The position numbers were made by a program, and so were the translations under genes. Below, piece after piece: positions 12,271 to 40,484 of a stretch of 64,000 nt of DNA. The notes beneath the pieces are model-generated. The model was not told the DNA's origin, ran no database searches, and was given only the letters and a program-made list of their open reading frames with translations. The DNA comes from an archaeon GW2011_AR20 (GTDB lineage: Archaea; Nanobdellota; Nanobdellia; SCGC-AAA011-G17; GW2011-AR20): positions 135,156 to 199,155 of the forward strand of contig CP010426.1 of assembly GCA_000830315.1 (NCBI GenBank). The letters are read 5' to 3'. Each line of letters begins with the position of its first letter. Position 1 is the first letter of the stretch.

Positions 12271-12305
12271 TATTGTTAATGAGATTTTATAATTTAAAAA
12301 TCTTT

Positions 12306-13094: not shown

Positions 13095-13096
13095 AT

Positions 13097-14403: not shown

Positions 14404-14570
14404 TTTTAATAGCTCTATCCTCTTGACCTCTTTTTTGCATGGTATTAGAGGGTTGAACTTATTTATATAGTTTTCTATTGACTTCTTTACGTAATAATAT
14501 AAGATTTAGACTAAAATAGAAATATTTATATAACTTATTATGCTTCTTTTTTGAAGAAGGAATCAATTAA

Positions 14571-15155: not shown

Positions 15156-15156
15156 A

Positions 15157-16314: not shown

Positions 16315-16370
16315 AAATTATTAGATTACAAAAGTGATTATAAAAAAGTAAAAGGAGTCTTAATAGAAAA

Positions 16371-17630: not shown

Positions 17631-17634
17631 TAAA

Positions 17635-19122: not shown

Positions 19123-19123
19123 A

Positions 19124-21762: not shown

Positions 21763-21763
21763 A

Positions 21764-24664: not shown

Positions 24665-25346
24665 ATCGGTTTTCTTTATAACTCCAATAACTTTCATCTC
24701 CAATAATAACATGATCCAATACATTTATTCCTAATAATTCTCCTGCCTCAAATATTTTTTTTGTTATCTCTATATCTTTTTGAGAAGGATTAGGATCACC
24801 AGATGGATGATTGTGAACTAAAATAACAGAATTAGCACTTTCTTTAATAGCTTCTTTGAATATTTCCCTTGGATGGATTAGAGAAGAATTCAAAATTCCT
24901 ATTGTAATCCCTTCTTTAAAACTAATAATTTTATTTTTAGTATCTAATAAGATAATACTCAAAACTTCTTTCTTATAATTCCTAAATTTATCTATAAATA
25001 TATTTTTAACATCTTTAGCGGAGTTTATTTTTTTATGTTTAATTTTATTATCATAACCTCCATTAATTAGTTTATTATATCTTTTACTTAGTTCAATTAA
25101 ACTTATTAATTGCAAGGCTTTATTGTAGCTTTTGCATTCTTTAGCTAACTCTTTTATAGATAAATTCTCTAAATTGTTAAAATTATATTTTTTAAGTAAT
25201 TTATTAGATAACTCAAGAGCACTTTCTCCTTTAGAACCAACACCAAAAATTATGGATAATAACTCAGCATCATCTAAAGAATTAACCCCATTTCTTGTTA
25301 ATTTAAAACCAGGGCGATTAAACCATGGAATTTCTTTTATTTTCAT
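24648..25346 (-). CDS. radC: RadC-like JAB/MPN domain protein (DUF2466)
   Basis: 232 aa; JAMM motif 'ILVHNHPSGDPNPSQKD', N-terminal HhH; converges on and overlaps the hsdR end by 17 nt. Confidence 0.8.
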   Translation of the reverse strand: MKIKEIPWFNRPGFKLTRNGVNSLDDAELLSIIFGVGSKGESALELSNKLLKKYNFNNLENLSIKELAKECKSYNKALQLISLIELSKRYNKLINGGYDNKIKHKKINSAKDVKNIFIDKFRNYKKEVLSIILLDTKNKIISFKEGITIGILNSSLIHPREIFKEAIKESANSVILVHNHPSGDPNPSQKDIEITKKIFEAGELLGINVLDHVIIGDESYWSYKENRSNNAP

Positions 25347-25429
25347 TAAAAATAGTAAAATAGAGAAATTAATAAATCTTTCACTATATATCGTAAAACT
25401 ATTTATTCTTAATTTAATTTATATATTAA

Positions 25430-25906
25430 ATGGAAAAAGAATATTACAGGAAAGTTATGATTAGTTTATATAGACCAGTTGTACAAAAGAAATTATACAA
25501 ATATAGAAGATATATAAAAAATAAACTTCCATATACATATGTTCCAATATGTAAAGATAAGTTATATTACAAATATTTCACTGAAGAAGGAATAGCTCGA
25601 TATTTATATGATAATTATGGTTGTGGAACTTATATGATCCAAGGCTGGAAGTGGTACAGTAAATGTAAAAAATGTAAACTTTCTTTTAATAAAAAAGAAT
25701 ATCGTAAGGTTATTGTATGTCCAAGATGTGATTGTAAGGAAAGAACTTGGTTTAAAGGCTTTTATAATTTATGTGTTTATGAGATTATAAAACATGGTGG
25801 AACTTACTTATACAACCCAATAAACATTAGTAATATATCAAAAACCAAAGCCTGGCGGTGGAACATAAATCATTTAGAAAATTTTGACCCCCTTACTAAT
25901 GTATAG
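25430..25906 (+). CDS. Cys-rich zinc-ribbon protein, hypothetical
   Basis: 158 aa; 'CKKCKLSFN...CPRCDCKE' two CxxC pairs. Confidence 0.3.
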   Translation: MEKEYYRKVMISLYRPVVQKKLYKYRRYIKNKLPYTYVPICKDKLYYKYFTEEGIARYLYDNYGCGTYMIQGWKWYSKCKKCKLSFNKKEYRKVIVCPRCDCKERTWFKGFYNLCVYEIIKHGGTYLYNPINISNISKTKAWRWNINHLENFDPLTNV

Positions 25907-26310
25907 TTCTTGTTTTTTGTTCAGTTGTCCAATTTCAATTTTTCAGCACTAGGGGTATAAAAAAATTCTTGTATATACAATGCTTCTATAAAGTGAATAT
26001 TTTCACGCATATACGTGTTCAATGAGAAAACTCAGGGCATCAAAAAAAATATAAATACAGAACTCAAATTATTAACTTTTAAGCCTTATAACATTTAATT
26101 TTAAACTTTTAACTATCTTCATATCTCATAAATCAAAGTTGTTAAGTGTTAAGTTTTTCTAATTTTAATATCAAAAAAACCATAAATCCAAAGTTATTAT
26201 TCTTTAAAGCCTATAAGTTAAAAATAAATTCTAAAAAAAATGTCCAATTCTGTTAAGTCTTTTAATGTATTGAACAAAACTTAACAGCGATATATATTTA
26301 ATTATTTTAA
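25907..26310. other. 400-bp AT-rich non-coding region with imperfect direct repeats
   Basis: Degenerate iterons, e.g. ttaacttttaagccttataa / ttctttaaagcctataagttaaaa and ataaatcaaagttgttaag / ataaatccaaagttattatt; no ORF over 30 aa. Confidence 0.5.
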
Positions 26311-26532
26311 CTATATATTGTTTTGTTCTTCTTTCTTTGGTTGTTCTTCTACTGTTACAAATTCTTTTGACAAAGATTTTATATGATCAAAGATCAATCT
26401 TGATATAGAGATACCATATTTCTTTGCTAGTTCTTTTAGATACATCCATTCTAAGTTATTCATATATATGCTATGTTGCCTCTTTGTTTTATTTATAATT
26501 TCTCCTGCCCCAGTAAATTCATTTGCTATCAT
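26311..26532 (-). CDS. Putative ribbon-helix-helix (CopG/Arc-like) DNA-binding protein
   Basis: 73 aa; beta-strand 'KRQHSIYMNN' then helices 'LEWMYLKELAKKYGISISRLIFDHI'; strong SD-like GGAGGAT 8 nt upstream; preceded by a 27-aa upstream micro-ORF. Confidence 0.4.
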   Translation of the reverse strand: MIANEFTGAGEIINKTKRQHSIYMNNLEWMYLKELAKKYGISISRLIFDHIKSLSKEFVTVEEQPKKEEQNNI

Positions 26533-26702
26533 TTTCTAGATCCTCCTTTGGTTCTTTATTTTCTAATTTCCCAAATAATTTTTCAAACCACATATCTTTT
26601 CTTGTAAGCTTTTGTTTTTCCATAGAATATATATTGAGGATCTTATTTATATAGTTCAATACAAAAAATCATAAATTATAATTTTTATATATAAAGCAAT
26701 AG

Positions 26703-26760
26703 AAAGGTACACTTCGAGAGTGTACCTTGGGTGTGTGCCACACCCCGGGTGTTATTCACA
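26703..26760. promoter_or_regulatory. Cluster of perfect inverted repeats (stem-loops) downstream of int
   Basis: AAGGTACAC-ttcgaga-GTGTACCTT, then GGTGTG-tgc-CACACC and CACCC-c-GGGTG. Confidence 0.5.
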
Positions 26761-26789
26761 ACCCTTTAAACAAAAGCTACAATCCATAT

Positions 26790-26957
26790 TCATATAATGC
26801 CTTTAGATTTTAATTCAAGGTGTTGGGTAAATACACGATCTATCACTTTATCCAACGATATGCTACTTTCACCTTCTTTTATAAAATCCCCTTGAACCTT
26901 ATGAATCTTAGCCTTTGTTTCTATTGTTATTCCTATTGTTCTATATTTTTTCTTCAT
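26790..26957 (-). CDS. Small basic protein (55 aa), possible DNA-binding
   Basis: Hand translation: MKKKYRTIGITIETKAKIHKVQGDFIKEGESSISLDKVIDRVFTQHLELKSKGII*. Confidence 0.25.
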   Translation of the reverse strand: MKKKYRTIGITIETKAKIHKVQGDFIKEGESSISLDKVIDRVFTQHLELKSKGII

Positions 26958-27113
26958 TTTGTTTTAGCTTTCATTAAAAAATGAAAAACTAAACAAAAGA
27001 GCTAAAACAAGTGGTTGTTAGTTTTGGGATTATAATAGTATATCATAAAAATTTAAAAAGCTTTCCCAACCTTAGTAAGGCATTGTTTTTTATATGTAAG
27101 ATAATATTAAAAT

Positions 27114-28328
27114 TTATTTATCAATCTCTTTAATCATTTTTGCTAACAAATCAAGTATCTCTGGTTTCTTTTCAATTAAATTGTTCATCTGCTCATCTAT
27201 CTTTATCCTTTTATTTTCTAAACTTAGAGCAACTCTTAAATTTAATGGCTTGCCACAGTTGTTACAATAATCATTAGTTGGTGCATTAACCGCTTTACAA
27301 ATACATACTACTGATTGCAATTGACTTTCTTTAACCTTTAATTCTTGTTTGCCAAAACCTTTTCTATAACTATTATCTGCTTCCTTCGGATTGAGGAATG
27401 TATAACTTGAAACAGTTTGTCTTTTAGTCCAACCATATCTCATCATTAACAATGAATCACTCATAAAGCTGCTTGAAGATGTTGCACTAAATCTTCTGAA
27501 AGCATGGGGATTAACAGCTTTTTTTAAATTTATTTTTTTAGCTATTTTATGTAACATCATATTTACTGAGCTATGACTGAGCTGTCCATAATGATTTCTT
27601 TTATCTAAACTAATAAACAAATGAGCTTTTGGATCATCTTTAAGTGGATGATGATTTAGCCATGTACTTAAATATGGAACTGAAGGAATTAATAGAACTC
27701 TTCTCCCTCCAGTCTTACCAGTTTCAACCATTAGTTGGATTAAACCATCATCTGTATAAGAAATATTAGATATATGTACGTTAACTAATTCACCTACTCT
27801 AACTCCAGAATCAGCTAAGATAGAAATCATAGCTTTATTTCTGACAGAACTTGTAACATTTAACATAGCTAATATATCTTCTTCTGTTAAAATTTCGCTA
27901 GGAGCTCTTTTCTTAGTTTCTCTTCTTATTGTTATATCCTGGACTTCCTTAGGATATTTTTTGTCATTACCTTTAAGCCATTTGTAGAATAATCTTAATA
28001 TAGCTAGATCTTCTCCTTTGCTATTAGTACTTAAATTAGAATTATTAATCTGTATTACTAAAGTTTCTATATCTTTTTTATTTACCTTATCTAAATCCTT
28101 GTTTAATTTTAAAACCATTAACCTTAGCCTATTAAAGTACTTTAGTATCCTTACATCACTTAAACCTTTAAACTTCTTGTATTCTGTAAATTCAATAATA
28201 AGCTCTTTATTTTTCTTGGAGATTGCTTTATTCTCTGTTAATAATACTAATTCTCTATTTGTTTTAGAATGTACTTTATACAAGATTTCAGCTGCATCTA
28301 TTACTATTTCATTTTCCATAAACTTCAT
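27114..28328 (-). CDS. int: Tyrosine recombinase/integrase (full length, adjacent to tRNA)
   Basis: 404 aa; catalytic region 'RVGELVNVHISNI' (box I Arg), 'HAFRRFSATS' (H-x-x-R), 'MRYGW...Y' ; C-terminal Zn ribbon 'CICK...CNNCGK'. Confidence 0.85.
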   Translation of the reverse strand: MKFMENEIVIDAAEILYKVHSKTNRELVLLTENKAISKKNKELIIEFTEYKKFKGLSDVRILKYFNRLRLMVLKLNKDLDKVNKKDIETLVIQINNSNLSTNSKGEDLAILRLFYKWLKGNDKKYPKEVQDITIRRETKKRAPSEILTEEDILAMLNVTSSVRNKAMISILADSGVRVGELVNVHISNISYTDDGLIQLMVETGKTGGRRVLLIPSVPYLSTWLNHHPLKDDPKAHLFISLDKRNHYGQLSHSSVNMMLHKIAKKINLKKAVNPHAFRRFSATSSSSFMSDSLLMMRYGWTKRQTVSSYTFLNPKEADNSYRKGFGKQELKVKESQLQSVVCICKAVNAPTNDYCNNCGKPLNLRVALSLENKRIKIDEQMNNLIEKKPEILDLLAKMIKEIDK

Positions 28329-28386
28329 TTTAAGCTCCTTATGCTTTTATACTTTAACGATACAACACATTAGAATCAGGTTTAAG

Positions 28387-28512
28387 TGTGGGAGACAGGA
28401 TTCGAACCTGTGAAGGCACTAAGCCAATAGGTTTCCTCCAAAATGACCTAAGCTTGGACTTTATTTCTAAAAATAATAAAGCTATCCCGTTTGGCCACTC
28501 CGGCACTCCCAC
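28387..28512 (-). tRNA. Intron-containing tRNA (126 nt), isotype unresolved
   Basis: Minus-strand: acceptor GTGGGAG/CTCCCAC (7 perfect bp), D-region GCCGGAGTGGCCAAACGGG, T-arm ACAGG-TTCGAAT-CCTGT, discriminator A; about 50 nt AT-rich insert (TTTATTATTTTTAGAAATAAAG...) between the D and T regions. Confidence 0.6.
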
Positions 28513-28545
28513 TTAAAATTTAAGAATTAATAATAGTATTTAAGG

Positions 28546-29023: not shown

Positions 29024-29404
29024 ATGGCAATCTCTCAAGCAAGATCAATAAGAAAAATATCCGGTTCAAGATATAGAAGTTATAGGAAAAAACGTTTGTA
29101 TGAATTGGGGAACTTGCCAAGGTTGACTAAATTAGGGGAGAAAAGATTAAAGTTAATTAAGATAAAATTCGGCAAAGAAAAAAATGCCTTATTACAATCT
29201 GATGTGGCAAATGTTTACAACCCAAAAACCAGGAAATATTCAAAAACAAAGATAATAACCATTGTTGAAAGTTCTGCAAACAGGCATTTTGTAAGGAGAA
29301 ACATAATGACCAAAGGCAGTGTAATCAAGACAGAACTTGGAAATGCGCGCATTACTTCTCGCCCAGGTCAAGAAGGAACGGTCAATGCTGTTTTAATCGA
29401 ATAA
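29024..29404 (+). CDS. rps8e: 30S ribosomal protein S8e
   Basis: 126 aa; basic N-terminus 'SGSRYRSYRKKR', 'TKIITIVESSANRHFVRRNIMTKGSVIKTELG'. Confidence 0.8.
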   Translation: MAISQARSIRKISGSRYRSYRKKRLYELGNLPRLTKLGEKRLKLIKIKFGKEKNALLQSDVANVYNPKTRKYSKTKIITIVESSANRHFVRRNIMTKGSVIKTELGNARITSRPGQEGTVNAVLIE

Positions 29405-30091
29405 TTTTATCAAACTAATTTTATACCAGGAATAAATTAAAGTAAAAATCATTCCAAAGATTAGCAATAAAATATAACTGTTACCCGAGACAATATTCAG
29501 ATAAGCAATAAAGAATATGCTTGTTATGGAAACTGCTAGCAGAGTATATAATAAGTATAAAGGAAAATATTTGTGAATTTTCGTGAATATCAATTTTATT
29601 TCGTTTAACTCTTTAAAATATAAAAAAAATGACAGGTAAGTTGTTAATATTAAAATTATTAATAAGTAAATGTTTGGATTAAAGACCAGCAAGGTAAAAA
29701 ATATAAAACTCGGCAGGCTTGCCAGACTGAATTTTACCAGATAATATTTTTCTTTTTTTAATAAATAAAAGCTGCATCCCTGCAATGAAACATATAAGAT
29801 AAAAATTATTAATGGTACAATTAAGAACATAAAAACATAGGCTTGGTTGGATAGGGAACTAATCTGGTTTAGTAAATTTTGTGCTTCCAAAACATTCTGG
29901 CTCGGATCTAATGCATTTAATTCTGGTCCATAAGTCTGTATGTTTAATAAAACTTGCTGAATTTTTGATCTTGAAACCATTAAAACAAAAATAAATATTA
30001 AAAAATAGCTTAAATCCAGAAAAAATGTTTTTAATAATTTTTGTTTCATGTTATTAATTGGTTGGTAGTCGGTAATGGGTTGTATCCGCAA
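29393..30091 (-). CDS. Polytopic membrane protein, hypothetical
   Basis: 232 aa, about 6 TM helices. Confidence 0.3.
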   Translation of the reverse strand: MRIQPITDYQPINNMKQKLLKTFFLDLSYFLIFIFVLMVSRSKIQQVLLNIQTYGPELNALDPSQNVLEAQNLLNQISSLSNQAYVFMFLIVPLIIFILYVSLQGCSFYLLKKEKYYLVKFSLASLPSFIFFTLLVFNPNIYLLIILILTTYLSFFLYFKELNEIKLIFTKIHKYFPLYLLYTLLAVSITSIFFIAYLNIVSGNSYILLLIFGMIFTLIYSWYKISLIKLFD

Positions 30092-33000
30092 TTTTTTTCT
30101 ATGTTTTGTTGTAGCCAGTAATGGATGGAATCTTCTTCTTTATTATCTCTAGCATAAATAAGCCTAGTTTCATCAAAGTTTGATTCAAAATCAGAACATT
30201 TTAAAGAAATTTCATGTATTTCCTCACTTGAGTATCCTAATGCCTGCTGTTCTATTATTTTAATGCCAAGCTCGTACGAAGCGATTTTTGAAGAAAATTT
30301 ATTTTCTGGTAGAATCCATTTAGTACCATCAAAAACGTATGTCTCATCTTTCTTTAATAAATCTCCCAAAAAATTTCTAAATGATCTTAAAACAAGCTTA
30401 ACTTCTACAGGAAGATTTCCTTTCGCTTCTTCTGGTTTTTGTACTTCTGTTCTTATTTCACCAGTATATTTTCCATTACAAGCATCAATAATTAAACCAT
30501 ACTTTTCTCCAATTGTCTTAAATTCATGTAAATCGTCTGGATTAACTTCTATTCTCTCTCTACCTTTAATTTGCGTATGCACTATTAAGAAATCATTATT
30601 TCTAATGTCAAGGGGTGTTTTCGGACCCAGAAAAATATAATCTCTATTTGCAATAAATGCTAAATAACCGATTCCATCCTGCAAATTCTTGTTTTTTAAA
30701 TTATCACAAATTTCTTTGTAGACCAGATCATATGAATTAAAGAGTTTATCACTACAGGTTTCCTCATTAAGTTCCTTCCACGTAATAAATGGCGCGTGAC
30801 TTGGTTCTTGCAACTGCCATTTTCCATTAATGAACCTATAATAAAAGTTTGACTTTTTTGTCCGACTAGATAATTGATTATTTTCTTCATATTCAACAAT
30901 GCATGAAAACGCTTCTGTTGTAATAGTCTCTTGCTCATTTTCTACTTCAGCTTCCTCTGTTTTTAGTGTACTAAGGTAAGCGCCGGAATATCTTGCAAGG
31001 GAATAATAAACCTGTGCGATTCTTAATCTTGCAGTTGTACTTTTCTCTATGTCTGCTGAAACACTTATTAAATAACGGTAGCTTGAATCATCTTCTGCTG
31101 TTTTTTCATCATCATACTTAATTAAGTTAGTTATTTCATTTATTGTATTTTCATCCAATACATCCTTAAATGTTAATTCATCTAATTTTAATTCCTTATT
31201 TGAAATCTCGGTAATGTTAAGCTTAGCATTTAATTGCAATTTTCCATTAGCAATAAATAATTCATTAAATCTTTTCTCCAATCCATCAAATAAAGTCTTC
31301 AATTTTTCTTGAGGTAATACATTTAATTTTTGGACTTCAAATCCCCTTTCCTCAATGTCTCTTAAAACTTCTTTGCTTGTTGCAATATCCTGTATCTTGA
31401 CTGTCCTCATATCTAGCCAGCATAATCCTAGATCCTGCCCTTGTTCATTCTTGCCGCAGGATCCGACCACATTCCAGTCAGATGGGTTGGTGCCTGTTCC
31501 AGGATTAGTTGGATTACATACCCTGACAATTCCTGTGCTGATTAATCCTTCGTTTGGCAGCGTTGTTCCTATATCAACGACAGGGCTCAATCTTTGTTGC
31601 TCTGGCCTGCAATCTTCAGCTGTATTTATTTGCCTATTAAGCTCGCTTTTAACAAATAAATCATTCACGTAAGACAAGCCAAATCCGGTTGTAATTTTTC
31701 CAAATCCGCATTCTACCCTGTTATTAATTGAAACACAAACTTGGTCATAACCCGATCTTGCGATTATATCACAGGTTTTGTCGATATATCCCCCTACTTT
31801 GATAATATCCCTTTGCTTAAACTGGCTATTGCAGTCTGTAACATACAAATTTCTGCCAAATTTGTCATTTAAAAACACGCTGTACCAAACATCTGAATTT
31901 TCACCGGCATAAATATGATAATAAATCTGGTATCTTGATTGTTCTTCGGCTTGTGACAATAATCCGGGGTCTCTGCCGCCTGCTGTTCTTCCAGCAGAAG
32001 TTGTCCATGGAAATACGTCAAAGAATGCTGTAAATTGCGGTGGCGTATCAGGGGCAGTAAGCTGATCGAAGAATTTGCCCAATCCAGGTGCCTTGCCAAA
32101 TATTGCTGCTTTGCAAATTTGTGTTCCAAATTCCTCTGTACTCCTTGCCTTATACGCAGCAAATGCATTTCTTCCATATTCGCTTGTAAAGAACTTGAAA
32201 GAATCTGCTGCGTTATCAAAACTATCTTTAAATGTTAAATATTCTCCACCGCCTTTGCCATTATTTTCCCCAAATATTGCTTCTGCACCCAAGCTAAATA
32301 CTCCTTTGTTAACATCAAGCAATGCCAATGCTTCTCTCCAGACTAACTCGCACATATAAACACTTCTAACCTTGTCGCAAATCCCGACGCTTTTTTGTTC
32401 AACCTTGGCAACTTGCAAACATTCTGCATAGCCCTGGAATACAGAGCGCCATGCTTTCAATCCAGCTGAAACGCCTGTAACACATACTGGCGGAACAGGT
32501 TGAGACAGACCCCAATTCGGCAATCCTAAAATTAATGATCCGATTAATCCAGTTTCTGCAACGCTTCTTTTTCCTAAAGGCCATCTGCCTCCTAAATTAA
32601 ATCTCGAGCCAGGACATAATACAGGATCACATATGTTAAATAATGTCTGACAGTCTCCAATATCCATGAAATCAGAACATTGTGCTTGTGTCAATGAAGA
32701 TTCTATTTGAGATCTGGCTTTGCTGCAGATCCAATTTCCAACTAATCCGGATATTCTATCGCCTTCATTTCTGCAGATGCCTGCTCTATTTACAGTTGTC
32801 TTGAAATCATTGGCTTTGTTTTGAGTGGATGAATCAGGCAATCTCAAAACATCCTCTGAAGTTAATAAAACATCGTCATTAGTACAAGGCAGGCCGTCTG
32901 GCCCGACGTTCCATTCGGAAATTGTTTTTGGCTGGCCGTTTGCATAATACTCCAAAATTTTTACAAAATTACCGTCTCTGGTTGGAACACAATATGGTTT

Positions 33001-36000
33001 GCCATCCTCATAATACTCAACCTTGGCTCCGGCATCATAGTCTCTTCTAATTCTGTTGCTGCTTAAATCACTATGACCAAGAATAAATTTATCGGCTTTA
33101 AGGTTTCCTTTTTCATCCAAGGCTTGATAAAGGGTTCTCCCATCATCTAATCTCACGACTTCTTCATCTTTTAATATCTTCAAAGCGTCAAGTTGCTTTT
33201 GTAACTTTGTTCTTGCCTCGGTATTTTGTTCAGAACTTAATTTACCTTCAAGATAATTTTTATAGTTCAGCTTGTTGGCTTCTGTTAGATTAATCTGCCT
33301 TCCGTCATTTTCATAATAATATAAATAAGTTCGTTCCTCTCCCCTAACATCTTTATACCTTCCAAGGAAAATTGCACTTGTCTTCTCAACAGCAACTATA
33401 TCAACTGCTTTCCTGTCGAAGATTTCCTTATACTTTGTCTCAAATACTTTTATTAATTCATCCTGACTTATTCCCGAATTGCTTTTAATAACTTCAGCAA
33501 GATATTCATAAGCTTCGTTAACGGCTTTCTTTTTATTATCTATAAACTTGGCACGTGTTTCTCTTTCCAGTTCTAGTTTATCGATGTTATTTTTTTCAAT
33601 CGAATAAGCAACTTCATCTTTTTTAGAATCATAGTCGCCTAATCTTTTTTTAGCATCTTCTAATTCTTTTTCTATTAATCTAAGTCTCATCGCTTCATCT
33701 TTATTTACAATGTCGGCATTATCCGGAGTTTTATACTTGCTATAATCGTTTTTGTAGAAATCCTGATTTTCATAATCTTCTGATTCTTTCTTAAACTCTT
33801 TTAAATTAGTTTCTGTATCCTCTATTTGTGTATTTATTATATTGCGATTTTCAAATATGCAGCTGTCATAATTCACATATGTTTTTTTAGCACCGCTATT
33901 TGCCTTGCAATATTGCTTCCATCCGCTTTCTCCATCAATTCCGTTAAGTGTAAGCTGTCTTGCGCGTGCATGTATTGGTCCTTGCAGCAAATTTTTTACA
34001 GTTAATAATCCAAAGACGCCATAACAGGTAGCCGTCCATATTCTTATTGTATTGTCTAATTTCGCGACTATTTTATCAATGTCATTAATTATTTTTCTTG
34101 TTTCATTAATTTGATGGTCTATTTGCTGCGGGGATAAACTAAACGGCCTTTTTTCTATTGGGATGTGAACTTTAAAATCACTTCTAGAAACAGCCTTGCC
34201 GCTTCCGGGCAATATTGTAACATATGCCTCTTGCTTTGTGTCTATTTGTGTAACCTGCACCTCATATTTTATATCTTTAAACACATCAAAATCAACCTGC
34301 CTTATATCTTTTAAATTTAGGTTGAATGTTATCCCAAATCTATCGTTGTATTTTTGCCTTATTGTAACCCTTGTATCTGCAATGCTTTCAACAACCCAGT
34401 CATAAGCTTCATTGTTTTTATCACGTGCATTTCTGATTAAAACATCATCTTTTTTTAGTTCTCTTATAGGATCATTTCCAACTCTTATTGATGCTGTTGC
34501 CCTGTCTCTTGTCTCGACTCTTGTTACTTTTTCCAAACTAACATAAGCATCCTCATCTTCCAAATAAATCTCTTCAGATCTTTCATTTCTGTTAAGCTTA
34601 TCCTGCAAATTATCGATTATTAACAATGCATTTTCATAATAAGAATTCCCTGGATTTATTTTTCCATATTCATTTATGGCTTTAGAATAATCTCCTAATT
34701 CCTCATAATTTTTGCCAAGATAAAAATAAACTTCATCCATATTCTCTGCATTTGGGTCACTTTCTACAATTCTATTTAACTCATTTATTGAAGTGCAGTG
34801 TAATTTCTTTTTATCGGGATTTAATTGTGCTAAATCATCTGTTTGATAAACCTCATCTTCTTTACATTCTATTGAAGAAACTGTTTCTGTTAAAGTGGCT
34901 TGACCTCCATTTAATTTTATTGCATTGTAGAAATTAAGTATATTATTGGCGAAATTAAAATCGACGGGCCCTATATTTGTTGTAATTATGTTTTTCATAT
35001 TTTGATTGTTATTTAAAAAGTTTTGATATTCTATCCAAGTTTTTCTTTGCCCAACAAAACTATATAATCCGTCAAAGTTTTTTGTGCCTGTAAATAAACC
35101 ATCTCCGCCGTTATAAGAAGCCAATCCTAAATCTACTGCTCCATGCTCTTTTATTCTATCTGCTAAGTACTTCGTTCCAAGCTCAATATTAATTTCTGGT
35201 TTCTCTATCTCTTCTATAGTCAATTGTTCTGGAGATTTGTAATTAAGTGATTTTGCAACTCCTCTTGCTGTACTTTGAAGCAGTTGCATTAAACCTATCG
35301 CGTTGCTGGATGATCGGGCTGTCGAGTCTCCATTTGATTCATACCAGATTACTGACCTAATTAAATCTTCATCCACATTAAATCTTTGGGCATTTTTCTT
35401 AATTATTTCATCATAAGTTTTTATTTTATCTAGGTAAGTGTTAAATGAATTTGCTGTTGTTGATCTTCCGATAATTTTATCAAGATAAAATTCGATGCTT
35501 TTGCTAAAATCAATTGATGTTCCAGTCAGGGGTGCTTCTGAAGCAAATATTGATCTTAAATTTTTAATGTTTCCCTCATTATTTCTTATAACAACTTCAT
35601 TAACATAATCTTTATTTCCGATTGCAACGGACTCTTTAATTTCAATTATCCTCAAATCAGAACCAGGATAAATTCTATCCCCCACACCCACAATTCTCTT
35701 ATCAAGATTATTATCGCGGATAATTTTCAGGGTTATCTTGTCTTCGGGCGTTTTGGTTCCTCGAAATTCAACCCTAAAATAATCATAGAGGAAAAATCCG
35801 CTTCTCAAATTAATGGGTCCTTTAATATCTCCAGTTTTGCTGAAAAACATTGTCCCGATGTTGTTCAATCTTGTATCATAAAGAGATAAGCTTACTTGAT
35901 TTTCATCTATTTTTGATGCCCTGATATAACCTTTTCCGCCCCAGAATTTTTGCTGTCTGCTTCTATCTTGTTTCCAAGCCTGTTCATCTGGTTCCTCTAC

Positions 36001-36543
36001 TAAAACTAGGTCTTCCAAGCCAAACTCTCCAAATCCCGATTCTAAGTCAAACCTGATATCCGCTGTTAAATTAAGAACAATATTATCTGGAACCTTTGTT
36101 TCCTGAGGAACTCTTTTCAACATTATAATTAAATAACCCAAATCAGTAAACCCATCTTGCGATAAGAAATTTCTTCTTTGCGGGGGGATGTATTGAATAA
36201 CTGCCTGTCTCGAACTTTCTGCATCTGCTAATCTAATGCTTACAATTCTTATTGGCGGCGTACCATACAAAGGTGAAATTTGAGGGCTTTCTTCCCCAGC
36301 AATCAAACTTCCTAACGTGACTCCTTTTAAAAAAGCATAAACGGGAGTATTCTGATTTTCCAGAACAGATGCAGGAACTATAGTTGGTTCGATTCCATCA
36401 ACATTTATCACAATTGCTTGTCCGACTTCTTCTTCAAAACCAGAGGTAAACGGGTTGGTTGATTCTCCAGGGGTTTGTGCAATTGTTATAGGACTGGTTA
36501 TTATAATTAAAATGCACAATATTGCAATAATTTTTGTTTTCAT
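30046..36543 (-). CDS. Giant secreted/surface protein (2165 aa) with a lytic transglycosylase (SLT) domain and Cys-rich modules
   Basis: N-terminal signal peptide 'MKTKIIAILCILIIITSPITIAQ'; SLT signature 'IWYESNGDSTARSSSNAIGLMQLLQSTA' (E-S...GLMQ) around nt 35150-35400; Cys-rich segment in the C-terminal third. Confidence 0.7.
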   Translation of the reverse strand: MKTKIIAILCILIIITSPITIAQTPGESTNPFTSGFEEEVGQAIVINVDGIEPTIVPASVLENQNTPVYAFLKGVTLGSLIAGEESPQISPLYGTPPIRIVSIRLADAESSRQAVIQYIPPQRRNFLSQDGFTDLGYLIIMLKRVPQETKVPDNIVLNLTADIRFDLESGFGEFGLEDLVLVEEPDEQAWKQDRSRQQKFWGGKGYIRASKIDENQVSLSLYDTRLNNIGTMFFSKTGDIKGPINLRSGFFLYDYFRVEFRGTKTPEDKITLKIIRDNNLDKRIVGVGDRIYPGSDLRIIEIKESVAIGNKDYVNEVVIRNNEGNIKNLRSIFASEAPLTGTSIDFSKSIEFYLDKIIGRSTTANSFNTYLDKIKTYDEIIKKNAQRFNVDEDLIRSVIWYESNGDSTARSSSNAIGLMQLLQSTARGVAKSLNYKSPEQLTIEEIEKPEINIELGTKYLADRIKEHGAVDLGLASYNGGDGLFTGTKNFDGLYSFVGQRKTWIEYQNFLNNNQNMKNIITTNIGPVDFNFANNILNFYNAIKLNGGQATLTETVSSIECKEDEVYQTDDLAQLNPDKKKLHCTSINELNRIVESDPNAENMDEVYFYLGKNYEELGDYSKAINEYGKINPGNSYYENALLIIDNLQDKLNRNERSEEIYLEDEDAYVSLEKVTRVETRDRATASIRVGNDPIRELKKDDVLIRNARDKNNEAYDWVVESIADTRVTIRQKYNDRFGITFNLNLKDIRQVDFDVFKDIKYEVQVTQIDTKQEAYVTILPGSGKAVSRSDFKVHIPIEKRPFSLSPQQIDHQINETRKIINDIDKIVAKLDNTIRIWTATCYGVFGLLTVKNLLQGPIHARARQLTLNGIDGESGWKQYCKANSGAKKTYVNYDSCIFENRNIINTQIEDTETNLKEFKKESEDYENQDFYKNDYSKYKTPDNADIVNKDEAMRLRLIEKELEDAKKRLGDYDSKKDEVAYSIEKNNIDKLELERETRAKFIDNKKKAVNEAYEYLAEVIKSNSGISQDELIKVFETKYKEIFDRKAVDIVAVEKTSAIFLGRYKDVRGEERTYLYYYENDGRQINLTEANKLNYKNYLEGKLSSEQNTEARTKLQKQLDALKILKDEEVVRLDDGRTLYQALDEKGNLKADKFILGHSDLSSNRIRRDYDAGAKVEYYEDGKPYCVPTRDGNFVKILEYYANGQPKTISEWNVGPDGLPCTNDDVLLTSEDVLRLPDSSTQNKANDFKTTVNRAGICRNEGDRISGLVGNWICSKARSQIESSLTQAQCSDFMDIGDCQTLFNICDPVLCPGSRFNLGGRWPLGKRSVAETGLIGSLILGLPNWGLSQPVPPVCVTGVSAGLKAWRSVFQGYAECLQVAKVEQKSVGICDKVRSVYMCELVWREALALLDVNKGVFSLGAEAIFGENNGKGGGEYLTFKDSFDNAADSFKFFTSEYGRNAFAAYKARSTEEFGTQICKAAIFGKAPGLGKFFDQLTAPDTPPQFTAFFDVFPWTTSAGRTAGGRDPGLLSQAEEQSRYQIYYHIYAGENSDVWYSVFLNDKFGRNLYVTDCNSQFKQRDIIKVGGYIDKTCDIIARSGYDQVCVSINNRVECGFGKITTGFGLSYVNDLFVKSELNRQINTAEDCRPEQQRLSPVVDIGTTLPNEGLISTGIVRVCNPTNPGTGTNPSDWNVVGSCGKNEQGQDLGLCWLDMRTVKIQDIATSKEVLRDIEERGFEVQKLNVLPQEKLKTLFDGLEKRFNELFIANGKLQLNAKLNITEISNKELKLDELTFKDVLDENTINEITNLIKYDDEKTAEDDSSYRYLISVSADIEKSTTARLRIAQVYYSLARYSGAYLSTLKTEEAEVENEQETITTEAFSCIVEYEENNQLSSRTKKSNFYYRFINGKWQLQEPSHAPFITWKELNEETCSDKLFNSYDLVYKEICDNLKNKNLQDGIGYLAFIANRDYIFLGPKTPLDIRNNDFLIVHTQIKGRERIEVNPDDLHEFKTIGEKYGLIIDACNGKYTGEIRTEVQKPEEAKGNLPVEVKLVLRSFRNFLGDLLKKDETYVFDGTKWILPENKFSSKIASYELGIKIIEQQALGYSSEEIHEISLKCSDFESNFDETRLIYARDNKEEDSIHYWLQQNIEKNCGYNPLPTTNQLIT

Positions 36544-38687
36544 TTTAATTCCGGATATTTAAAGTTTATATTGTCCGCATTTAAGCTAACACCTTCGTAA
36601 ACTAAAGTTATTTCATCATTATTTTCTGGAACCATGTCAAAGATTGTATAAATAATTATTTTATCTGAATTGGCCAAATTGATTCTATCAATTCCATATT
36701 CAAAGACGGCTCCCCCTACAACAACATCCTCTAAATTAAATCCTTCTAGAGTTGTGGTGATGCATTTCGTTTCATCAAAAAAGAGTCCGAGCAATCCTCC
36801 TTTAGGAACTTTCACGCATTTTTCAACAGTTTCTGGATCTATCGTTATCTTGCCAGGATCATTCATACTTAAATAAGTTGTAATTGCATAATCTCCGGAA
36901 ATTAAATTGATATTTTTTGTTTCCGGGTAAGTTATTGCTTCGGAATAATCCTCGGTTAGATGGTCAAAGGTCAGCAAAACTTTTTCATTACTTCTTAACT
37001 CCCTTGTTGCTCCTGAGCTTTTATCCACCACCACAATTTCAATTTCTTTATTGTAATAAGGTTCCAGGACTAATGAAACTTGAGATTCCTGATTGGTTGA
37101 TATCGTAGAGGTTGCTTTATTATAACCTTCTTTTTCTGCAATAATCTGGCCATTTAAACACTGTTGGAAATTCTCTTCTAAAACTGCATTTCCATTTTCA
37201 TTGCTGGTTTCTCCGATATTGCATGTATTTGTTAAACATTTAAATGAAATCAAAACATTGTCTAAAGGAACAACCACATCATTATTATTAACAGTTAATG
37301 TATTTACTCTTGTCTTTGTTGCTTTTCTATCGCAGATGTTAACTGTTTCTATTGGATTTAAAGTTCCCAAAATATTTTCTTTAGGCTGATTATTATCGAT
37401 TACAATCATTTGTGCAAACTGAAAATTATAATTGTTTTTGTTTAAAGTGATCAATATAGGATACTTAACATCATAAACAAAATGATAGTTGTTCAAACAT
37501 AAGAATATGCTTAATGCCTTTAATGCGCCTGTTTTCTTAATTATTTCATCTCCTTTTAAAATTCCGTTATCACTTGGAAAAACCTCCATGTAAAATGGCC
37601 AGTTCTCGCTATATAAAAAATTTGAATTAATATCCTTATCAACTGACCCTAATGTAAAATAATCTGTAGTCTGAGAGGTTTTAACTGCACCTATATTCCT
37701 GTTAACTATTCTTTTAAAATCTGTTTTTACCTGGTTTTCATCCCAGATTTTTATATCACAGCTGAATTCTGTTTTTGATAAAGGTATCTCATCATATAAG
37801 ACCATCATATCAATTGTTTTCTCCTCAAAGAAATTATTTCTGCTGCTTTCTTCAAATAAATTCAAAGAGGTATCATATAATTTACCAAGAGGAACAGGCA
37901 CCGTAATCAGGAATTTATCAAATTTTGCTGTTAATCCATCTTTGCTAATTTCCATATCACTCAAGATCCGGACAAATATTTCTTCATCCCTTATTTCAAT
38001 TTCTGTTTCAATATTATTAAAACTACTAAAATCATAACCTTGAAATGCGGTAAAATTATTCAGACAATCATTTAAATTAGAATTAATATAAACTGCTAAT
38101 TGATCCTGCATCTCGTTTAATGTCGGGATTTGCTGTTTTTGAATGCCGTTTCCTGTTTCATAAAACCAATACGGAACTTCCAGTCCATTATTCCTGAACA
38201 CGTCCAATTTATTCGAGAAAGGCGCATTCGGGTTTACAGGAACATTCTCTTGGGGCAATTCAATATAACCTCCTTGAGATCCGAGTATCTGTGCGCCTTC
38301 AAGAGCCACCTGGGAAACGCAAGAATCAAGATAGTTTTTAACTGGTTTGAATTCTTCTAAAATTTCTATGCTTTCTAATTCGCGTTCAAATTGGCTTTTA
38401 AAAATATAATTTCTGAAAGAAAATAATAATACTGTCGTGATTAGAACAACCAAGCCAAGAATAATATAAACTGAAACCTGCCCTCTTTTTTTCATTTTAT
38501 TTTCCCTTACTTGCACCATTTTGCTGCCGCCAGCATCAATGATATCAACAAGTTTTTTTTCCTCTAAATCCTTAACAAGATCAGAAACAGTTGTATTTTT
38601 TATATTAAAATGCTTTGCGATTATGCTAAAATTAATAAAGTTCTTGCTCCTTATGAATTTCATTAATTGTTCTTGTGTTGGTATCAA
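36540..38687 (-). CDS. Membrane-anchored protein: cytoplasmic wHTH, single TM, large extracytoplasmic domain; co-transcribed upstream of the giant protein
   Basis: 715 aa; 'IKNTTVSDLVKDLEEKKLVDIID' wHTH, TM 'VSVYIILGLVVLITTVLLFSF'; 4-nt overlap with the downstream gene. Confidence 0.4.
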   Translation of the reverse strand: MIPTQEQLMKFIRSKNFINFSIIAKHFNIKNTTVSDLVKDLEEKKLVDIIDAGGSKMVQVRENKMKKRGQVSVYIILGLVVLITTVLLFSFRNYIFKSQFERELESIEILEEFKPVKNYLDSCVSQVALEGAQILGSQGGYIELPQENVPVNPNAPFSNKLDVFRNNGLEVPYWFYETGNGIQKQQIPTLNEMQDQLAVYINSNLNDCLNNFTAFQGYDFSSFNNIETEIEIRDEEIFVRILSDMEISKDGLTAKFDKFLITVPVPLGKLYDTSLNLFEESSRNNFFEEKTIDMMVLYDEIPLSKTEFSCDIKIWDENQVKTDFKRIVNRNIGAVKTSQTTDYFTLGSVDKDINSNFLYSENWPFYMEVFPSDNGILKGDEIIKKTGALKALSIFLCLNNYHFVYDVKYPILITLNKNNYNFQFAQMIVIDNNQPKENILGTLNPIETVNICDRKATKTRVNTLTVNNNDVVVPLDNVLISFKCLTNTCNIGETSNENGNAVLEENFQQCLNGQIIAEKEGYNKATSTISTNQESQVSLVLEPYYNKEIEIVVVDKSSGATRELRSNEKVLLTFDHLTEDYSEAITYPETKNINLISGDYAITTYLSMNDPGKITIDPETVEKCVKVPKGGLLGLFFDETKCITTTLEGFNLEDVVVGGAVFEYGIDRINLANSDKIIIYTIFDMVPENNDEITLVYEGVSLNADNINFKYPELK

Positions 38688-38857: not shown

Positions 38858-39649
38858 ATGAAAAAATCAATAATTATATTGATGATATTCCTGGTTTTAT
38901 CCTTGGCTTCATTATATTATTCTGCTAATTTTAGAGGGGATGTTGTTTTTACCGGAGAAACGATACGCGAGCCTGGTCGTTATAAGATAGCCAACTGGAA
39001 TCTCAATATTTTTGGGGTTTCTAAGGCGAATAATTCGGCTTTAATCGAATCTTATGCAAATATTCTTAGCAAATATGACATAATCTTCATACAAGAGATA
39101 AGAGACGCTTCATATACATCATTTGATAAATTATGCATTCACCTAGCCAATTATACCTGCATAACTAGTTCAAGGGCAGGTAAATCAATTTCAAAAGAGC
39201 AATATGGAATCATTTACAGAAATGAGATTAATATAGCCGAGGTTAAAGATTACAACCCCGATCCAAGATTCGAACGTCCGCCTATTAAAATTACTTTTGA
39301 TTTGAAGGATTATTTTCTAACAGTATATAATATTCATACCAAACCAGAAGATGTCTCAAAAGAACTTTCTTATTTAGAAGATTTGGTTGAAGACACTGGA
39401 AACATAATGATTATTGGAGATTTGAATGCAGATTGTTCTTATTATAATAACTACAAAGAAACTCAATTTGATAAATGGCATTGGATAATCAATGATGATG
39501 AGGACACAACTGTTTCGAGAAGAGATTGTGCTTATGACAGAATAATTTTCAATGATAATGCTTATGAATATTATGTAGATTATGGAATTTTAAAAAATAT
39601 TAATTCAACGCAAAGCGATCATTATCTAATCTGGACTTCGGTGAAATAA
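38858..39649 (+). CDS. Secreted endonuclease/exonuclease/phosphatase (EEP, DNase I-like) family nuclease
   Basis: 263 aa; signal/TM 'MKKSIIILMIFLVLSLASL'; 'KIANWNLNIFG', 'IIFIQEI', 'GDLNAD', C-terminal 'SDHYLI' EEP motifs. Confidence 0.7.
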   Translation: MKKSIIILMIFLVLSLASLYYSANFRGDVVFTGETIREPGRYKIANWNLNIFGVSKANNSALIESYANILSKYDIIFIQEIRDASYTSFDKLCIHLANYTCITSSRAGKSISKEQYGIIYRNEINIAEVKDYNPDPRFERPPIKITFDLKDYFLTVYNIHTKPEDVSKELSYLEDLVEDTGNIMIIGDLNADCSYYNNYKETQFDKWHWIINDDEDTTVSRRDCAYDRIIFNDNAYEYYVDYGILKNINSTQSDHYLIWTSVK

Positions 39650-39722
39650 TGGGCCTGCCCAGATTCGAACTGGGGATCTCTTCGACGTCAACGAAGTGTC
39701 ATAACCACTAGACCACAAGCCC
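39650..39722 (-). tRNA. tRNA-Val (anticodon GAC)
   Basis: Minus: GGGCTTG..CTTCG-TTGACGT-CGAAG..CCCAG-TTCGAAT-CTGGG-CAGGCCC-A. Confidence 0.8.
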
Positions 39723-40392: not shown

Positions 40393-40484
40393 AGCCGCTG
40401 ACCGGATTTGAACCGGCGACCTGCTGTTTACAAAACAGCTGCTCTAGCCATTGCTCCTACCTTGATAGTCTGAGCTACAGCGGC
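40393..40484 (-). tRNA. tRNA-Thr (anticodon TGT) with a probable 18-20-nt intron in the D-loop
   Basis: Minus: GCCGCTG-TA-GCTC-AG[ACTATCAAGGTAGGAGCAA]TGGCTA-GAGC-A-GCTGT-TTTGTAA-ACAGC-AGGTC-GCCGG-TTCAAAT-CCGGT-CAGCGGC-T; 92 nt; everything except the D-loop insert is canonical. Confidence 0.6.

What the first reader, a model, noticed from the sequence alone, without database searches (positions are those of the whole stretch)
30046..38687. 2165-aa secreted giant protein with a lytic transglycosylase (SLT) domain, co-transcribed with a membrane-anchored wHTH protein
Seen: signal peptide, SLT catalytic signature (YESNGDS...AIGLMQL) about 400 aa from the N-terminus, long repeat-poor regions and a Cys-rich module. 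The upstream gene (4-nt overlap) encodes a wHTH-TM-ectodomain protein. Established: SLT domains cleave peptidoglycan glycan strands, and archaea (outside pseudomurein producers) lack this substrate. In a DPANN-like genome, a giant surface protein with a murein/pseudomurein hydrolase domain is a candidate host-interaction or predation factor. A secreted EEP nuclease gene follows on the opposite strand (38858-39649), consistent with scavenging.
Basis: partly seen in the sequence, partly recalled or inferred. Interest (0 to 1): 0.55.

Follow-up and report, generated by a model that had tools for sequence, protein, structure and literature searches.

The report
Known Woesearchaeota giant surface murein-cutting protein
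This is the already published giant "lytic murein transglycosylase" of the tiny archaeon Woesearchaeota AR20. The enzyme domain that cuts bacterial cell walls is real, but it is only one swappable head on a widespread surface protein of unknown fold that always comes with a partner gene.

Summary
ORF 30046-36543(-) encodes a 2165-aa exported protein with a genuine SLT/GH23 domain (Pfam 80.2 bits, E 1e-22; catalytic E402 kept in 55 of 56 family modules).

The protein is identical to AJF62368.1, "Lytic murein transglycosylase [archaeon GW2011_AR20]". Its family and the idea that it attacks bacteria are already in the literature (PMC8204110, PMC9723730).

What the tools add:
- **SLT is optional.** It occurs in about 40% of members, at different positions. 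Other members carry amidase, M15 peptidase, 3D, phage lysozyme, GDSL lipase, PT-HINT, Ank or LRR modules.
- **The family is defined by a scaffold.** It is rich in cysteine (18 invariant Cys) and has no fold match in PDB or BFVD. It was found in at least 561 species genomes.
- **There is a fixed partner gene.** A roughly 650-aa gene sits directly upstream in 52 of 52 testable loci. Its N-terminus looks like a prepilin signal. The wHTH is a fusion found only in a subclade.
- **A third gene belongs to the operon.** A membrane-protein gene overlaps downstream (ATGA).
- **The locus is chromosomal.** It lies between ribosomal protein genes.
- **The EEP nuclease is not a conserved neighbour.**

Most likely this is a surface platform that displays interchangeable effectors aimed at bacterial envelopes.

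The parts
36540..38687 (-). Partner gene (715 aa from the TTG start; an ATG lies at 38662). It comprises a cytoplasmic wHTH, a prepilin-like motif with a TM helix, and a roughly 620-aa Cys-containing ectodomain. Identical to NCBI 'hypothetical protein J4213_02885'.
   Evidence: A partner gene lies directly upstream of the giant gene, on the same strand, in 52 of 52 loci with enough upstream sequence. No Pfam, PHROG or NCBIfam family matches the ectodomain.
38496..38687 (-). N-terminal winged-helix (MarR-like) extension of the partner, aa 1-64, predicted cytoplasmic
   Evidence: Below threshold in Pfam for this protein (MarR 21.0 bits against 24.6). Consistent across 17 orthologues (MarR best E 1e-6). 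Profile against PDB MarR 9z72 gives E 9e-4. It stays in frame in 18 of 120 partners and 10 of 52 loci and is absent from the rest.
38409..38495 (-). M65-KKRG|Q70 motif plus TM helix (aa 71-89). It resembles a class III (prepilin) signal. If the resemblance holds, cleavage would fall between G69 and Q70.
   Evidence: 95 of 120 partners start with M-x-K-[KR]-[GA]-Q-[VAI]-T-x-[FY]-I-I-L-G. Among the 37 partners with enough residues before the motif to tabulate, Q is invariant (37/37) and G is present in 32. TM helix. No Pfam class III signal model matches, so the pilin reading is an inference from the motif.
30046..36543 (-). Giant gene, 2165 aa. Identical to AJF62368.1 'Lytic murein transglycosylase [archaeon GW2011_AR20]'.
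36475..36543 (-). Signal peptide or signal anchor, aa 1-23
   Evidence: It is the only strongly hydrophobic segment (Kyte-Doolittle 2.47)
35554..36474 (-). Conserved N-terminal domain, aa 24-330, fold not determined
   Evidence: Aligned in 24 of 24 homologues, with occupancy 0.86-0.96. No family match.
35098..35406 (-). SLT / GH23 lytic transglycosylase module, aa 380-482. The catalytic E402 codon is at 35338-35340. The module lies in a variable insert (aa ~330-550).
   Evidence: Pfam E 1.1e-22. EmtA alignment. Motif conservation. Insert occupancy is only 0.17-0.44.
33754..34863 (-). Middle region, aa 561-930. It contains TPR-like helices, an Ig-like beta-sandwich, and a conserved I-E-K-R799 motif in a loop predicted to be disordered. 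These are followed by long helices carrying the invariant C840, C879 and C895.
   Evidence: Model 2. Weak TPR_2 match. Invariant columns.
33097..33753 (-). Poorly conserved, K/E-rich region of long helices (stalk-like), aa 931-1149
   Evidence: Conservation profile. Helices H388-488 of model 2.
31264..33096 (-). Core that defines the family, aa 1150-1760. It has Ig-like sandwiches on either side of a Cys-rich helical domain (aa ~1289-1495; motif C-D-P-V-x-C-P-x-S-R-x-x-L-G-G). 15 of the 18 invariant Cys lie here.
   Evidence: The profile hits 1114 representatives of 50%-identity clusters, 952 of them below 1e-30, and at least 561 species genomes. No PDB sequence match. Foldseek against PDB and BFVD finds only generic Ig-like hits.
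30049..31263 (-). Variable C-terminal tail, aa 1761-2165, with no recognisable domain in this member. This is the position where most relatives carry their SLT or other effector modules.
   Evidence: Occupancy 0.3-0.8. 47 of 59 SLT modules in full-length relatives lie C-terminal of the core.
29393..30049 (-). Third gene of the operon: a 218-aa polytopic membrane protein (5-6 TM helices) whose ATG overlaps the giant gene's TGA
   Evidence: Orthologues follow the giant gene in L001, L003, L004 and L008. tblastn detects it in 11 of 52 loci. No gene of this kind was called downstream in L006 and L007.

Best explanation
The three overlapping genes (partner, giant, small membrane protein) encode a cell-surface apparatus specific to the Woesearchaeota/Nanoarchaeia lineage.

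The giant protein is exported by the Sec pathway. It consists of a conserved scaffold: an N-terminal domain, Ig-like sandwiches, a long helical stalk, and a Cys-rich helical domain of unknown fold. Interchangeable effector or binding heads are grafted onto this scaffold.

In AR20 the head is a catalytically intact family-1 GH23 lytic transglycosylase. It would cut the MurNAc-GlcNAc bonds of bacterial murein wherever the archaeon touches a bacterium or bacterial wall debris. That would open the sacculus for attachment, for access to the membrane, or for uptake of wall fragments.

The partner, anchored by its single N-terminal helix, most likely holds or positions the giant protein at the archaeal surface. 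Its invariant [KR][GA]-Q motif suggests processing by a prepilin peptidase, and possibly incorporation into a type IV filament.

Shown here: the domain identity, catalytic motif conservation, modular swapping of heads, the fixed gene pairing, synteny, and the lack of any known fold for the scaffold.

Inferred: surface location, physical interaction between the proteins, bacterial target, and prepilin-type processing.
For: - The SLT domain is significant and its catalytic Glu is conserved.
- The same scaffold carries Amidase_3, Peptidase_M15_4 + 3D, Phage_lysozyme2, DUF1615, GDSL lipase, Metallophos, PT-HINT, Ank, LRR and C25 peptidase in other members. Several unrelated enzyme classes specific to murein have been recruited to it, plus a HINT domain of the polymorphic-toxin type.
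- The SLT position differs among relatives that are 43-45% identical.
- The protein has a signal peptide, no other TM helix, and 18 invariant Cys, as expected for an extracellular protein.
- The partner gene lies directly upstream in 52 of 52 loci, and the genes overlap by ATGA.
- The partner's N-terminal motif is conserved in 95 of 120 proteins.
- A FlaI/TadA-like ATPase and two small genes with N-terminal KKA-x-x-FET followed by a hydrophobic stretch lie about 18 kb away in the window.
- The literature reaches the same general reading from domain content alone (PMC8204110; PMC9723730; PMC12352652).
Against: - No experiment exists on any family member.
- About 60% of members have no recognisable wall-degrading domain, so the scaffold's core job may not be lysis.
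- The strict vertical inheritance at a housekeeping locus would also fit a structural envelope protein.
- The pilin-like reading fails the Pfam class III signal models.
- No host is known for AR20.
- The model of the central domain has only moderate confidence (pLDDT about 70-85, with loops below 50).
Confidence: 0.55

Rival explanations
1. Structural envelope protein. The giant protein and its membrane-anchored partner would form the main surface layer or envelope scaffold of these archaea, as SlaA and SlaB do in Sulfolobales. The enzymatic heads would be optional decorations.
For: The gene appears to be single-copy among the loci retrieved: 80 loci from 80 different contig records, not checked genome-wide. 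It is present in at least 561 species genomes, always at the same locus between the S3Ae/S15 and L37e/LSm/S8e genes. Most members have no enzyme domain. The arrangement of a large exported protein plus a membrane anchor resembles SlaA/SlaB (comparison from my own knowledge).
Against: 18 invariant cysteines and a long helical stalk are unusual for archaeal S-layer proteins (own knowledge). The tails are highly variable and include PT-HINT, lipase and PG hydrolases, which is typical of proteins involved in conflict or interaction with other cells. The model contains no lattice-type repeat domain.
Confidence: 0.2
2. Scavenging enzyme. The protein would be a surface-tethered glycanase that digests free peptidoglycan debris to supply amino sugars and amino acids, with no living host involved.
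For: The SLT is intact. The genome is small and reduced (829 kb). The literature notes PG-derived nutrient use in the sister group Pacearchaeota (PMC11537232). A secreted EEP nuclease is encoded next to the operon in this genome.
Against: A 2165-aa scaffold with a stalk, binding repeats (Ank, LRR) and toxin-type modules (PT-HINT) in relatives is excessive for a digestive enzyme. The EEP gene is absent from all 88 related loci. 60% of members lack any PG hydrolase.
Confidence: 0.15
3. Self-directed 'specialised' transglycosylase. Like VirB1, FlgJ or PleA, the SLT would open the organism's own murein-like wall so that a machine spanning the envelope can be inserted.
For: The best NCBIfam match is a flagellar-assembly lytic transglycosylase (72.7 bits, far below its cutoff of 234). 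A type IV filament ATPase is present in the window.
Against: Archaea of this lineage are not known to have murein (established knowledge; PMC8204110). SLT is optional and changes position. The gene is not adjacent to the filament locus, which is about 18 kb away.
Confidence: 0.05
4. Viral or mobile-element protein (like a tape measure or T7 gp16) in an integrated element marked by the nearby integrase.
For: PHROG and PDB hits to internal virion proteins, tail lysins and T7 gp16. A tyrosine integrase lies at 27114-28328.
Against: All of those hits cover only the SLT module. The integrase island is separated from the operon by the L37e-LSm-S8e genes and extends in the other direction. The locus is syntenic across many genomes that have no integrase there. 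BFVD gives no meaningful match (top hit TM 0.06, rmsd 60 Å).
Confidence: 0.02

Closest known systems
[quoted passage not shown]
   Same: Identical sequence. Same family, same lineage restriction, and same proposed role in binding or degrading bacterial walls.
   Different: In the passages I read, the papers describe the family by its SLT domain. Here SLT is shown to be optional (about 40% of members). The family is defined instead by an orphan Cys-rich scaffold and by a fixed upstream partner gene.
Family-1 bacterial lytic transglycosylases (E. coli EmtA/MltE, MltC, Slt70; GH23)
   Same: Homologous catalytic module with the E-S, G-L-M-Q and Y-N motifs.
   Different: The bacterial enzymes are 20-70 kDa periplasmic housekeeping proteins that act on the cell's own wall. 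Here the module is an insert in a 2165-aa archaeal surface protein in an organism with no wall of that type.
Phage T7 gp16 and other virion or tail-associated lysins
   Same: A large structural or delivery protein carrying an SLT module to breach a target cell's murein.
   Different: No similarity outside the SLT module. This gene is chromosomal and vertically inherited, and there are no phage genes nearby.
Bacterial polymorphic toxin / effector-display proteins (Rhs, CdiA and MafB types, with PT-HINT)
   Same: A conserved N-terminal delivery scaffold with variable C-terminal enzymatic cassettes. One relative carries PT-HINT.
   Different: No Rhs/YD, haemagglutinin or filamentous repeats. No evident cognate immunity gene that changes with the head. 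This is an architectural analogy only.
SPEARE proteins of Nanohaloarchaeota and giant proteins of predatory Omnitrophota (the former from my own knowledge, Hamm et al. 2019; the latter bioRxiv 10.1101/2023.11.21.568195, title and abstract seen)
   Same: Giant multi-domain surface proteins with lytic domains in ultra-small symbiotic or predatory cells.
   Different: No sequence relationship was seen. SPEARE carries protease, adhesion and restriction-endonuclease domains and is proposed to act on archaeal hosts.
Type IV pilus tip complexes (minor pilins plus a large non-pilin adhesin such as PilY1) and ToxR-like membrane-tethered wHTH regulators
   Same: The partner has a short basic leader, [KR][GA]-Q and a hydrophobic helix, like archaeal prepilins. 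It is paired with a large non-pilin protein. In the AR20 clade a cytoplasmic wHTH precedes the helix, as in ToxR/CadC.
   Different: No profile match to pilin or class III signal families. Cleavage, filament incorporation and DNA binding are all untested.

Membership tests
SLT / GH23 lytic transglycosylase (PF01464) | Profile match above the curated threshold | tested here: met
   80.2 bits against a cutoff of 21.3, E 1.1e-22, aa 380-482
SLT / GH23 lytic transglycosylase (PF01464) | Catalytic Glu in the E-S motif, aligned with the AIESGGN segment of EmtA (identifying that segment as the catalytic motif is own knowledge) | tested here: met
   WYE402S aligns with AIES of EmtA. E is present in 55 of 56 family SLT modules.
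SLT / GH23 lytic transglycosylase (PF01464) | G-L-M-Q and (A)YN-x-G substrate-binding motifs | tested here: met
   G417 in 56/56, L418-M419-Q420 in 49-52/56, Y477 in 51/56, N478 in 48/56
SLT / GH23 lytic transglycosylase (PF01464) | Cleavage of murein glycan strands, forming 1,6-anhydro-MurNAc | not testable with these tools
   Needs an enzyme assay on sacculi
Woesearchaeota/Pacearchaeota giant protein family (fam00969 of PMC8204110) | Shared conserved core and lineage restriction | tested here: met
   The core profile finds 1114 cluster representatives and at least 561 species genomes. All 80 retrieved are named Woesearchaeota, Nanoarchaeota, Nanoarchaeia or 'archaeon'. The sequence is identical to the AR20 protein that PMC9723730 cites as carrying an analogous gene.
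Archaeal type IV pilin-like proteins (class III signal peptide), for the partner | Match to Pfam class III signal or archaeal pilin N-terminal models | tested here: not met
   No such hit even at E <= 10 on three isolated N-termini
Archaeal type IV pilin-like proteins (class III signal peptide), for the partner | Short basic leader ending in [KR][GA], then +1 Q and a hydrophobic helix of about 20 aa at the extreme N-terminus | tested here: met
   95 of 120 partners. Among the 37 partners with enough residues before the motif to tabulate, Q is invariant (37/37) and G/A is 32/5.
Archaeal type IV pilin-like proteins (class III signal peptide), for the partner | Cleavage by a prepilin peptidase and assembly into a filament | not testable with these tools
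   Needs N-terminal proteomics. No prepilin peptidase gene was recognised among the window ORFs of at least 150 aa that were scanned.
MarR-type winged helix-turn-helix, for partner aa 1-64 | Profile match above the curated threshold | tested here: inconclusive
   Window protein: MarR at 21.0 bits against 24.6. 14 of 17 orthologues match MarR (best E 1e-6). Profile against PDB MarR gives E 9e-4.
Endonuclease/exonuclease/phosphatase (PF03372), for the neighbour gene 38858-39649 | Profile match above threshold; conserved association with the operon | tested here: met
   The domain test is met (45.1 bits against 24.5). The association test is not met: the gene is absent from 88 of 88 related loci.
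Phage tape-measure or internal virion proteins | Similarity outside the lysin module; phage gene context | tested here: not met
   PHROG and PDB hits are confined to aa ~361-491, with one extending to aa 550. No meaningful BFVD fold match. The flanks are housekeeping genes.

The most novel reading that the evidence does not exclude
The partner-giant pair is a previously unrecognised effector system specific to this archaeal lineage.

In this reading the partner is a giant pilin-like subunit that is processed by a prepilin peptidase. It anchors the polymorphic giant effector at the tip or base of a type IV filament that contacts bacterial hosts.

In the AR20 clade the prepilin leader has been expanded into a whole winged-helix domain. 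Cleavage at G69|Q70 would release this domain into the cytoplasm, so that surface assembly feeds back directly on transcription.

The Cys-rich helical core would be a new fold that engages the host membrane once the wall has been cut.
Probability: 0.12. Interest if true: 0.75.

Novelty: already known. Interest (0 to 1): 0.4.

Why it matters
Woesearchaeota and their relatives are among the most abundant uncultured archaea, and how they interact with other cells is unknown. This gene is the main published clue that some of them attack or attach to bacteria.

Three results turn that annotation-level hint into a defined and testable target:
- The wall-cutting domain is only one of many interchangeable heads.
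- The conserved unit is a scaffold with no detectable fold match in PDB or BFVD, plus a fixed partner with a prepilin-like N-terminus.
- The module sits at a fixed chromosomal locus in hundreds of species.

The heads could also serve as predictors of host type in environmental genomes.

Tried and rejected
- **Mobile-element origin.** Rejected. The integrase island lies on the far side of the L37e-LSm-S8e genes, and the locus is syntenic elsewhere. A repeat search for att sites found nothing convincing.
- **Phage relationship.** PHROG and PDB hits cover the SLT module only.
- **Profile of the core against PDB sequences.** Nothing found.
- **Word-indexed profile search.** It returned only 5 fragments. 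The exhaustive search was used instead.
- **First structure model.** With 25 sequences the central domain stayed below pLDDT 50. A second model with 47 sequences and a longer segment improved it.
- **Alignments.** Several large alignments failed or exceeded limits.
- **Pfam class III signal models on partner N-termini.** No hit.
- **Hydrophobic segment aa 1328-1343 as a fusion loop or pore-forming hairpin.** Considered, but it is too short, it is followed by a segment with charged residues, and the model shows only a short helix there. It is kept only as part of the low-probability novel case.
- **EEP nuclease as part of the system.** Rejected.
- **Castelle 2015.** The paper could not be read.
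Full report
**1. The observation**

The coordinates are exact. ORF 30046-36543 on the minus strand encodes 2165 aa. Its only strongly hydrophobic stretch is the N-terminal MKTKIIAILCILIIITSPITIAQ, so it is exported and has no further membrane span.

Pfam places an SLT domain at aa 380-482 with E 1.1e-22 (80.2 bits, cutoff 21.3). Searches against PDB sequences align the same stretch with E. coli EmtA, MltC, Slt70 and T7 gp16. NCBIfam gives lytic transglycosylase models only.

The 'YES' glutamate is E402 and aligns with the AIES motif of EmtA. In 56 SLT modules taken from the family, E402 is present in 55, S403 in 54 and G417 in all. L-M-Q and Y477-N478 are kept in about 90%.

The protein has 33 Cys, of which 18 are invariant in 25 homologues.

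The upstream 715-aa ORF overlaps the giant gene by ATGA and has one TM helix at aa 71-89. The EEP gene on the other strand is confirmed, with a hydrophobic N-terminus.

It encodes 218 aa with 5-6 TM helices, and its ATG overlaps the giant gene's TGA.

**2. Where the window comes from**

An exact look-up identifies the giant protein as AJF62368.1 / MBS3160622.1, 'Lytic murein transglycosylase [archaeon GW2011_AR20]', on an 829,411-bp record. The partner is 'hypothetical protein J4213_02885 [Candidatus Woesearchaeota archaeon]'.

Vigneron et al. (PMC9723730) report 'large lytic murein transglycosylase' genes in Woesearchaeota genomes and note that an analogous gene had already been reported in the AR20 genome. 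Castelle et al. (PMC8204110) describe family fam00969, with proteins up to 3,000 aa, as a possible new class of extracellular enzymes of Woesearchaeota and Pacearchaeota that bind and degrade bacterial walls. PMC12352652 repeats the point.

The finding and its interpretation are therefore already in the literature.

**3. What defines the family**

BLAST and MAFFT of 24 homologues show conserved blocks at these positions:
- aa 1-330
- aa 550-900
- aa 1150-1750, with the peak at 1300-1700

The stretch that holds SLT (aa 330-550) and the tail (aa 1760-2165) are variable.

A profile of the core finds 1114 representatives of 50%-identity clusters (952 below 1e-30), mostly 1,900-2,900 aa long. It also finds at least 561 GTDB species genomes. 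All 80 that were retrieved are named Woesearchaeota, Nanoarchaeota, Nanoarchaeia or 'archaeon'.

Only 58 of 147 full-length representatives carry SLT. Those 58 hold 59 SLT modules, 47 C-terminal of the core and 12 on the N-side as in AR20. Relatives 43-45% identical to AR20 already differ in SLT position.

Other members carry the following modules, and many carry nothing recognisable:
- Amidase_3
- Peptidase_M15_4 + 3D
- Phage_lysozyme2 + Peptidase_C25
- DUF1615
- GDSL lipase
- Metallophos
- PT-HINT
- Ank
- LRR
- TPM

SLT is thus one interchangeable head on a conserved scaffold. Several unrelated classes of murein hydrolase have been recruited to that scaffold independently. This is the strongest argument that bacterial walls are a target.

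**4. Genomic context**

The operon lies between tRNA-Val, S3Ae, a Cdc45-like DHH protein and S15 on one side, and S8e, LSm and L37e on the other. The same arrangement is seen in seven other loci that were inspected gene by gene.

Among the 80 genome loci, 52 have at least 6.5 kb upstream of the core. In those 52:
- the partner gene is directly upstream on the same strand in 52
- S3Ae lies upstream in 28
- L37e, LSm and S8e lie downstream in 23-26
- the wHTH extension is present in 10
- the downstream membrane gene is detectable in 11

The EEP nuclease occurs in none of the 88 related loci.

The nearby tyrosine integrase (27114-28328) abuts a tRNA with an intron at 28387-28512. It heads an insertion of about 19 kb of defence genes that points away from the operon. 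The giant gene is a vertically inherited core gene, not cargo.

**5. The partner**

At least 362 relatives exist, and none has a Pfam domain. Of 120 examined, 95 begin M-x-K-[KR]-[GA]-Q-[VAI]-T-x-[FY]-I-I-L-G. Among the 37 partners with enough residues before the motif to tabulate, Q is invariant.

This pattern is a short basic leader, a small residue, +1 Gln and a hydrophobic helix. From my own knowledge it is the pattern of archaeal class III (prepilin) signals. Pfam's models for such signals do not match, so this remains an inference.

Eighteen of the 120, including AR20, carry an in-frame extension of about 64 aa before the same motif and retain the internal Met. The extension matches winged-helix families consistently but below threshold (MarR best E 1e-6 among 17; PDB MarR E 9e-4).

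The topology places the wHTH in the cytoplasm. It is either a ToxR-like tether or, if a prepilin peptidase cuts at G69|Q70, a released factor.

The window also holds a FlaI/TadA-type ATPase (56650-58998). It is followed by a 727-aa protein and two small proteins with KKA-x-x-FET followed by a hydrophobic N-terminus. A type IV filament system therefore exists in this genome.

**6. Structure**

A first AlphaFold model of aa 1150-1760 used 25 sequences. It left the central Cys-rich region below pLDDT 50.

A second model of aa 561-1760 used 47 sequences and reached mean pLDDT 71.9 and pTM 0.51. It shows, in order:
- TPR-like helices
- an Ig-like sandwich
- a disordered loop holding the conserved I-E-K-R799 motif
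- long helices
- two further beta-sandwiches flanking an all-helical domain (aa ~1289-1495) that carries most of the invariant Cys

**7. Mechanism**

The best-supported reading is a surface-anchored platform that displays polymorphic effectors.

- The giant protein is exported.
- It is held at the archaeal surface by the partner. The fixed pairing and translational coupling are shown. The physical contact is inferred.
- Through a long helical stalk it presents a head that, in AR20, cuts the glycan strands of bacterial murein.

Whether this serves attachment to a living host, predation or feeding on debris cannot be decided from sequence. I give the platform-aimed-at-bacteria reading 0.55 and a structural envelope role 0.2. 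Pure scavenging gets 0.15, self-wall remodelling 0.05 and a viral origin 0.02.

**8. Novelty and score**

The feature as reported is already known, including this very gene. The new details are the optional and mobile SLT, the orphan scaffold, the fixed partner with a prepilin-like N-terminus, the wHTH fusion, the third gene, and the fixed locus. They sharpen an open question (how do Woesearchaeota engage bacteria?) but do not overturn anything.

Interest is 0.4. The most novel reading still open is a pilin-anchored effector system with a leader-encoded transcription factor that is released on processing. I give it about 0.12 probability.

Noticed in passing
window 10600-28520: A defence-gene island of about 19 kb is inserted next to an intron-containing tRNA with a long variable arm (28387-28512, minus strand; Rfam 37.9 bits; missed by ARAGORN). 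Its genes are: tyrosine integrase 27114-28328, RadC, a type I R-M system with two HsdM genes plus HsdS and HsdR (17635-24664), GmrSD+HNH, a PD-(D/E)XK nuclease, CARF-wHTH, ThsB-like TIR, and Fic. In relatives L001 and L003, TFIIB follows S8e directly. Here TFIIB is at 8299-9225. No att repeat was found.
   Followed up: partly
window 56650-62956: A locus like a type IV filament system. It holds a FlaI/TadA-type ATPase (782 aa), a 727-aa protein with no family match, and two small proteins (61295-62173 and 62351-62956). The N-termini of the small proteins (KKA-V/S-x-F-E-T followed by a hydrophobic stretch) look like class III signal peptides.
   Followed up: partly
window 38409-38687 (partner aa 1-93): A whole winged-helix domain sits in frame in front of a prepilin-like motif (…ENK-M65-KKRG-Q70…). 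The Met that starts the short forms is retained. This suggests either an alternative internal start or release of the wHTH by a prepilin peptidase. It is seen in 18 of 120 partners.
   Followed up: partly
window 34147-34158 (giant aa 796-799): The motif I-E-K-R (R799 invariant; E797 and K798 in at least 90% of members) lies in a loop predicted to be disordered (pLDDT about 31-36) just before a long conserved helix. It may be a proteolytic maturation site.
   Followed up: no
window 40401-40450: A partial tRNA-like match on the minus strand (Rfam 30.2 bits, model positions 8-63 of 71) between the methyltransferase and S3Ae genes. ARAGORN does not call it. It may be a tRNA remnant or an atypical tRNA.
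   Followed up: no
window 39649-39722: tRNA-Val(GAC), on the minus strand, starts at the base immediately after the stop codon of the EEP nuclease gene. The EEP gene is absent at this position in all related loci, so it may be a recent insertion next to the tRNA.
   Followed up: partly
L006 14358-17727 (relative of the locus): In a distant relative, a second and even larger gene (product called at 6553 aa, running off the locus) lies just beyond S8e, next to the partner-giant pair.
   Followed up: no
protein P0129 and the 17 other long family members scanned: One family member carries a PT-HINT (pretoxin HINT) domain, one a GDSL lipase and one a calcineurin-like phosphoesterase. These are presumably in the variable regions, although the positions were not listed. 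The scaffold therefore behaves like a carrier for polymorphic toxins.
   Followed up: partly
window 30001-36000: The giant gene is slightly richer in GC (0.33-0.37) than its flanks (0.27-0.32), with a strong negative GC and AT skew consistent with its strand.
   Followed up: no
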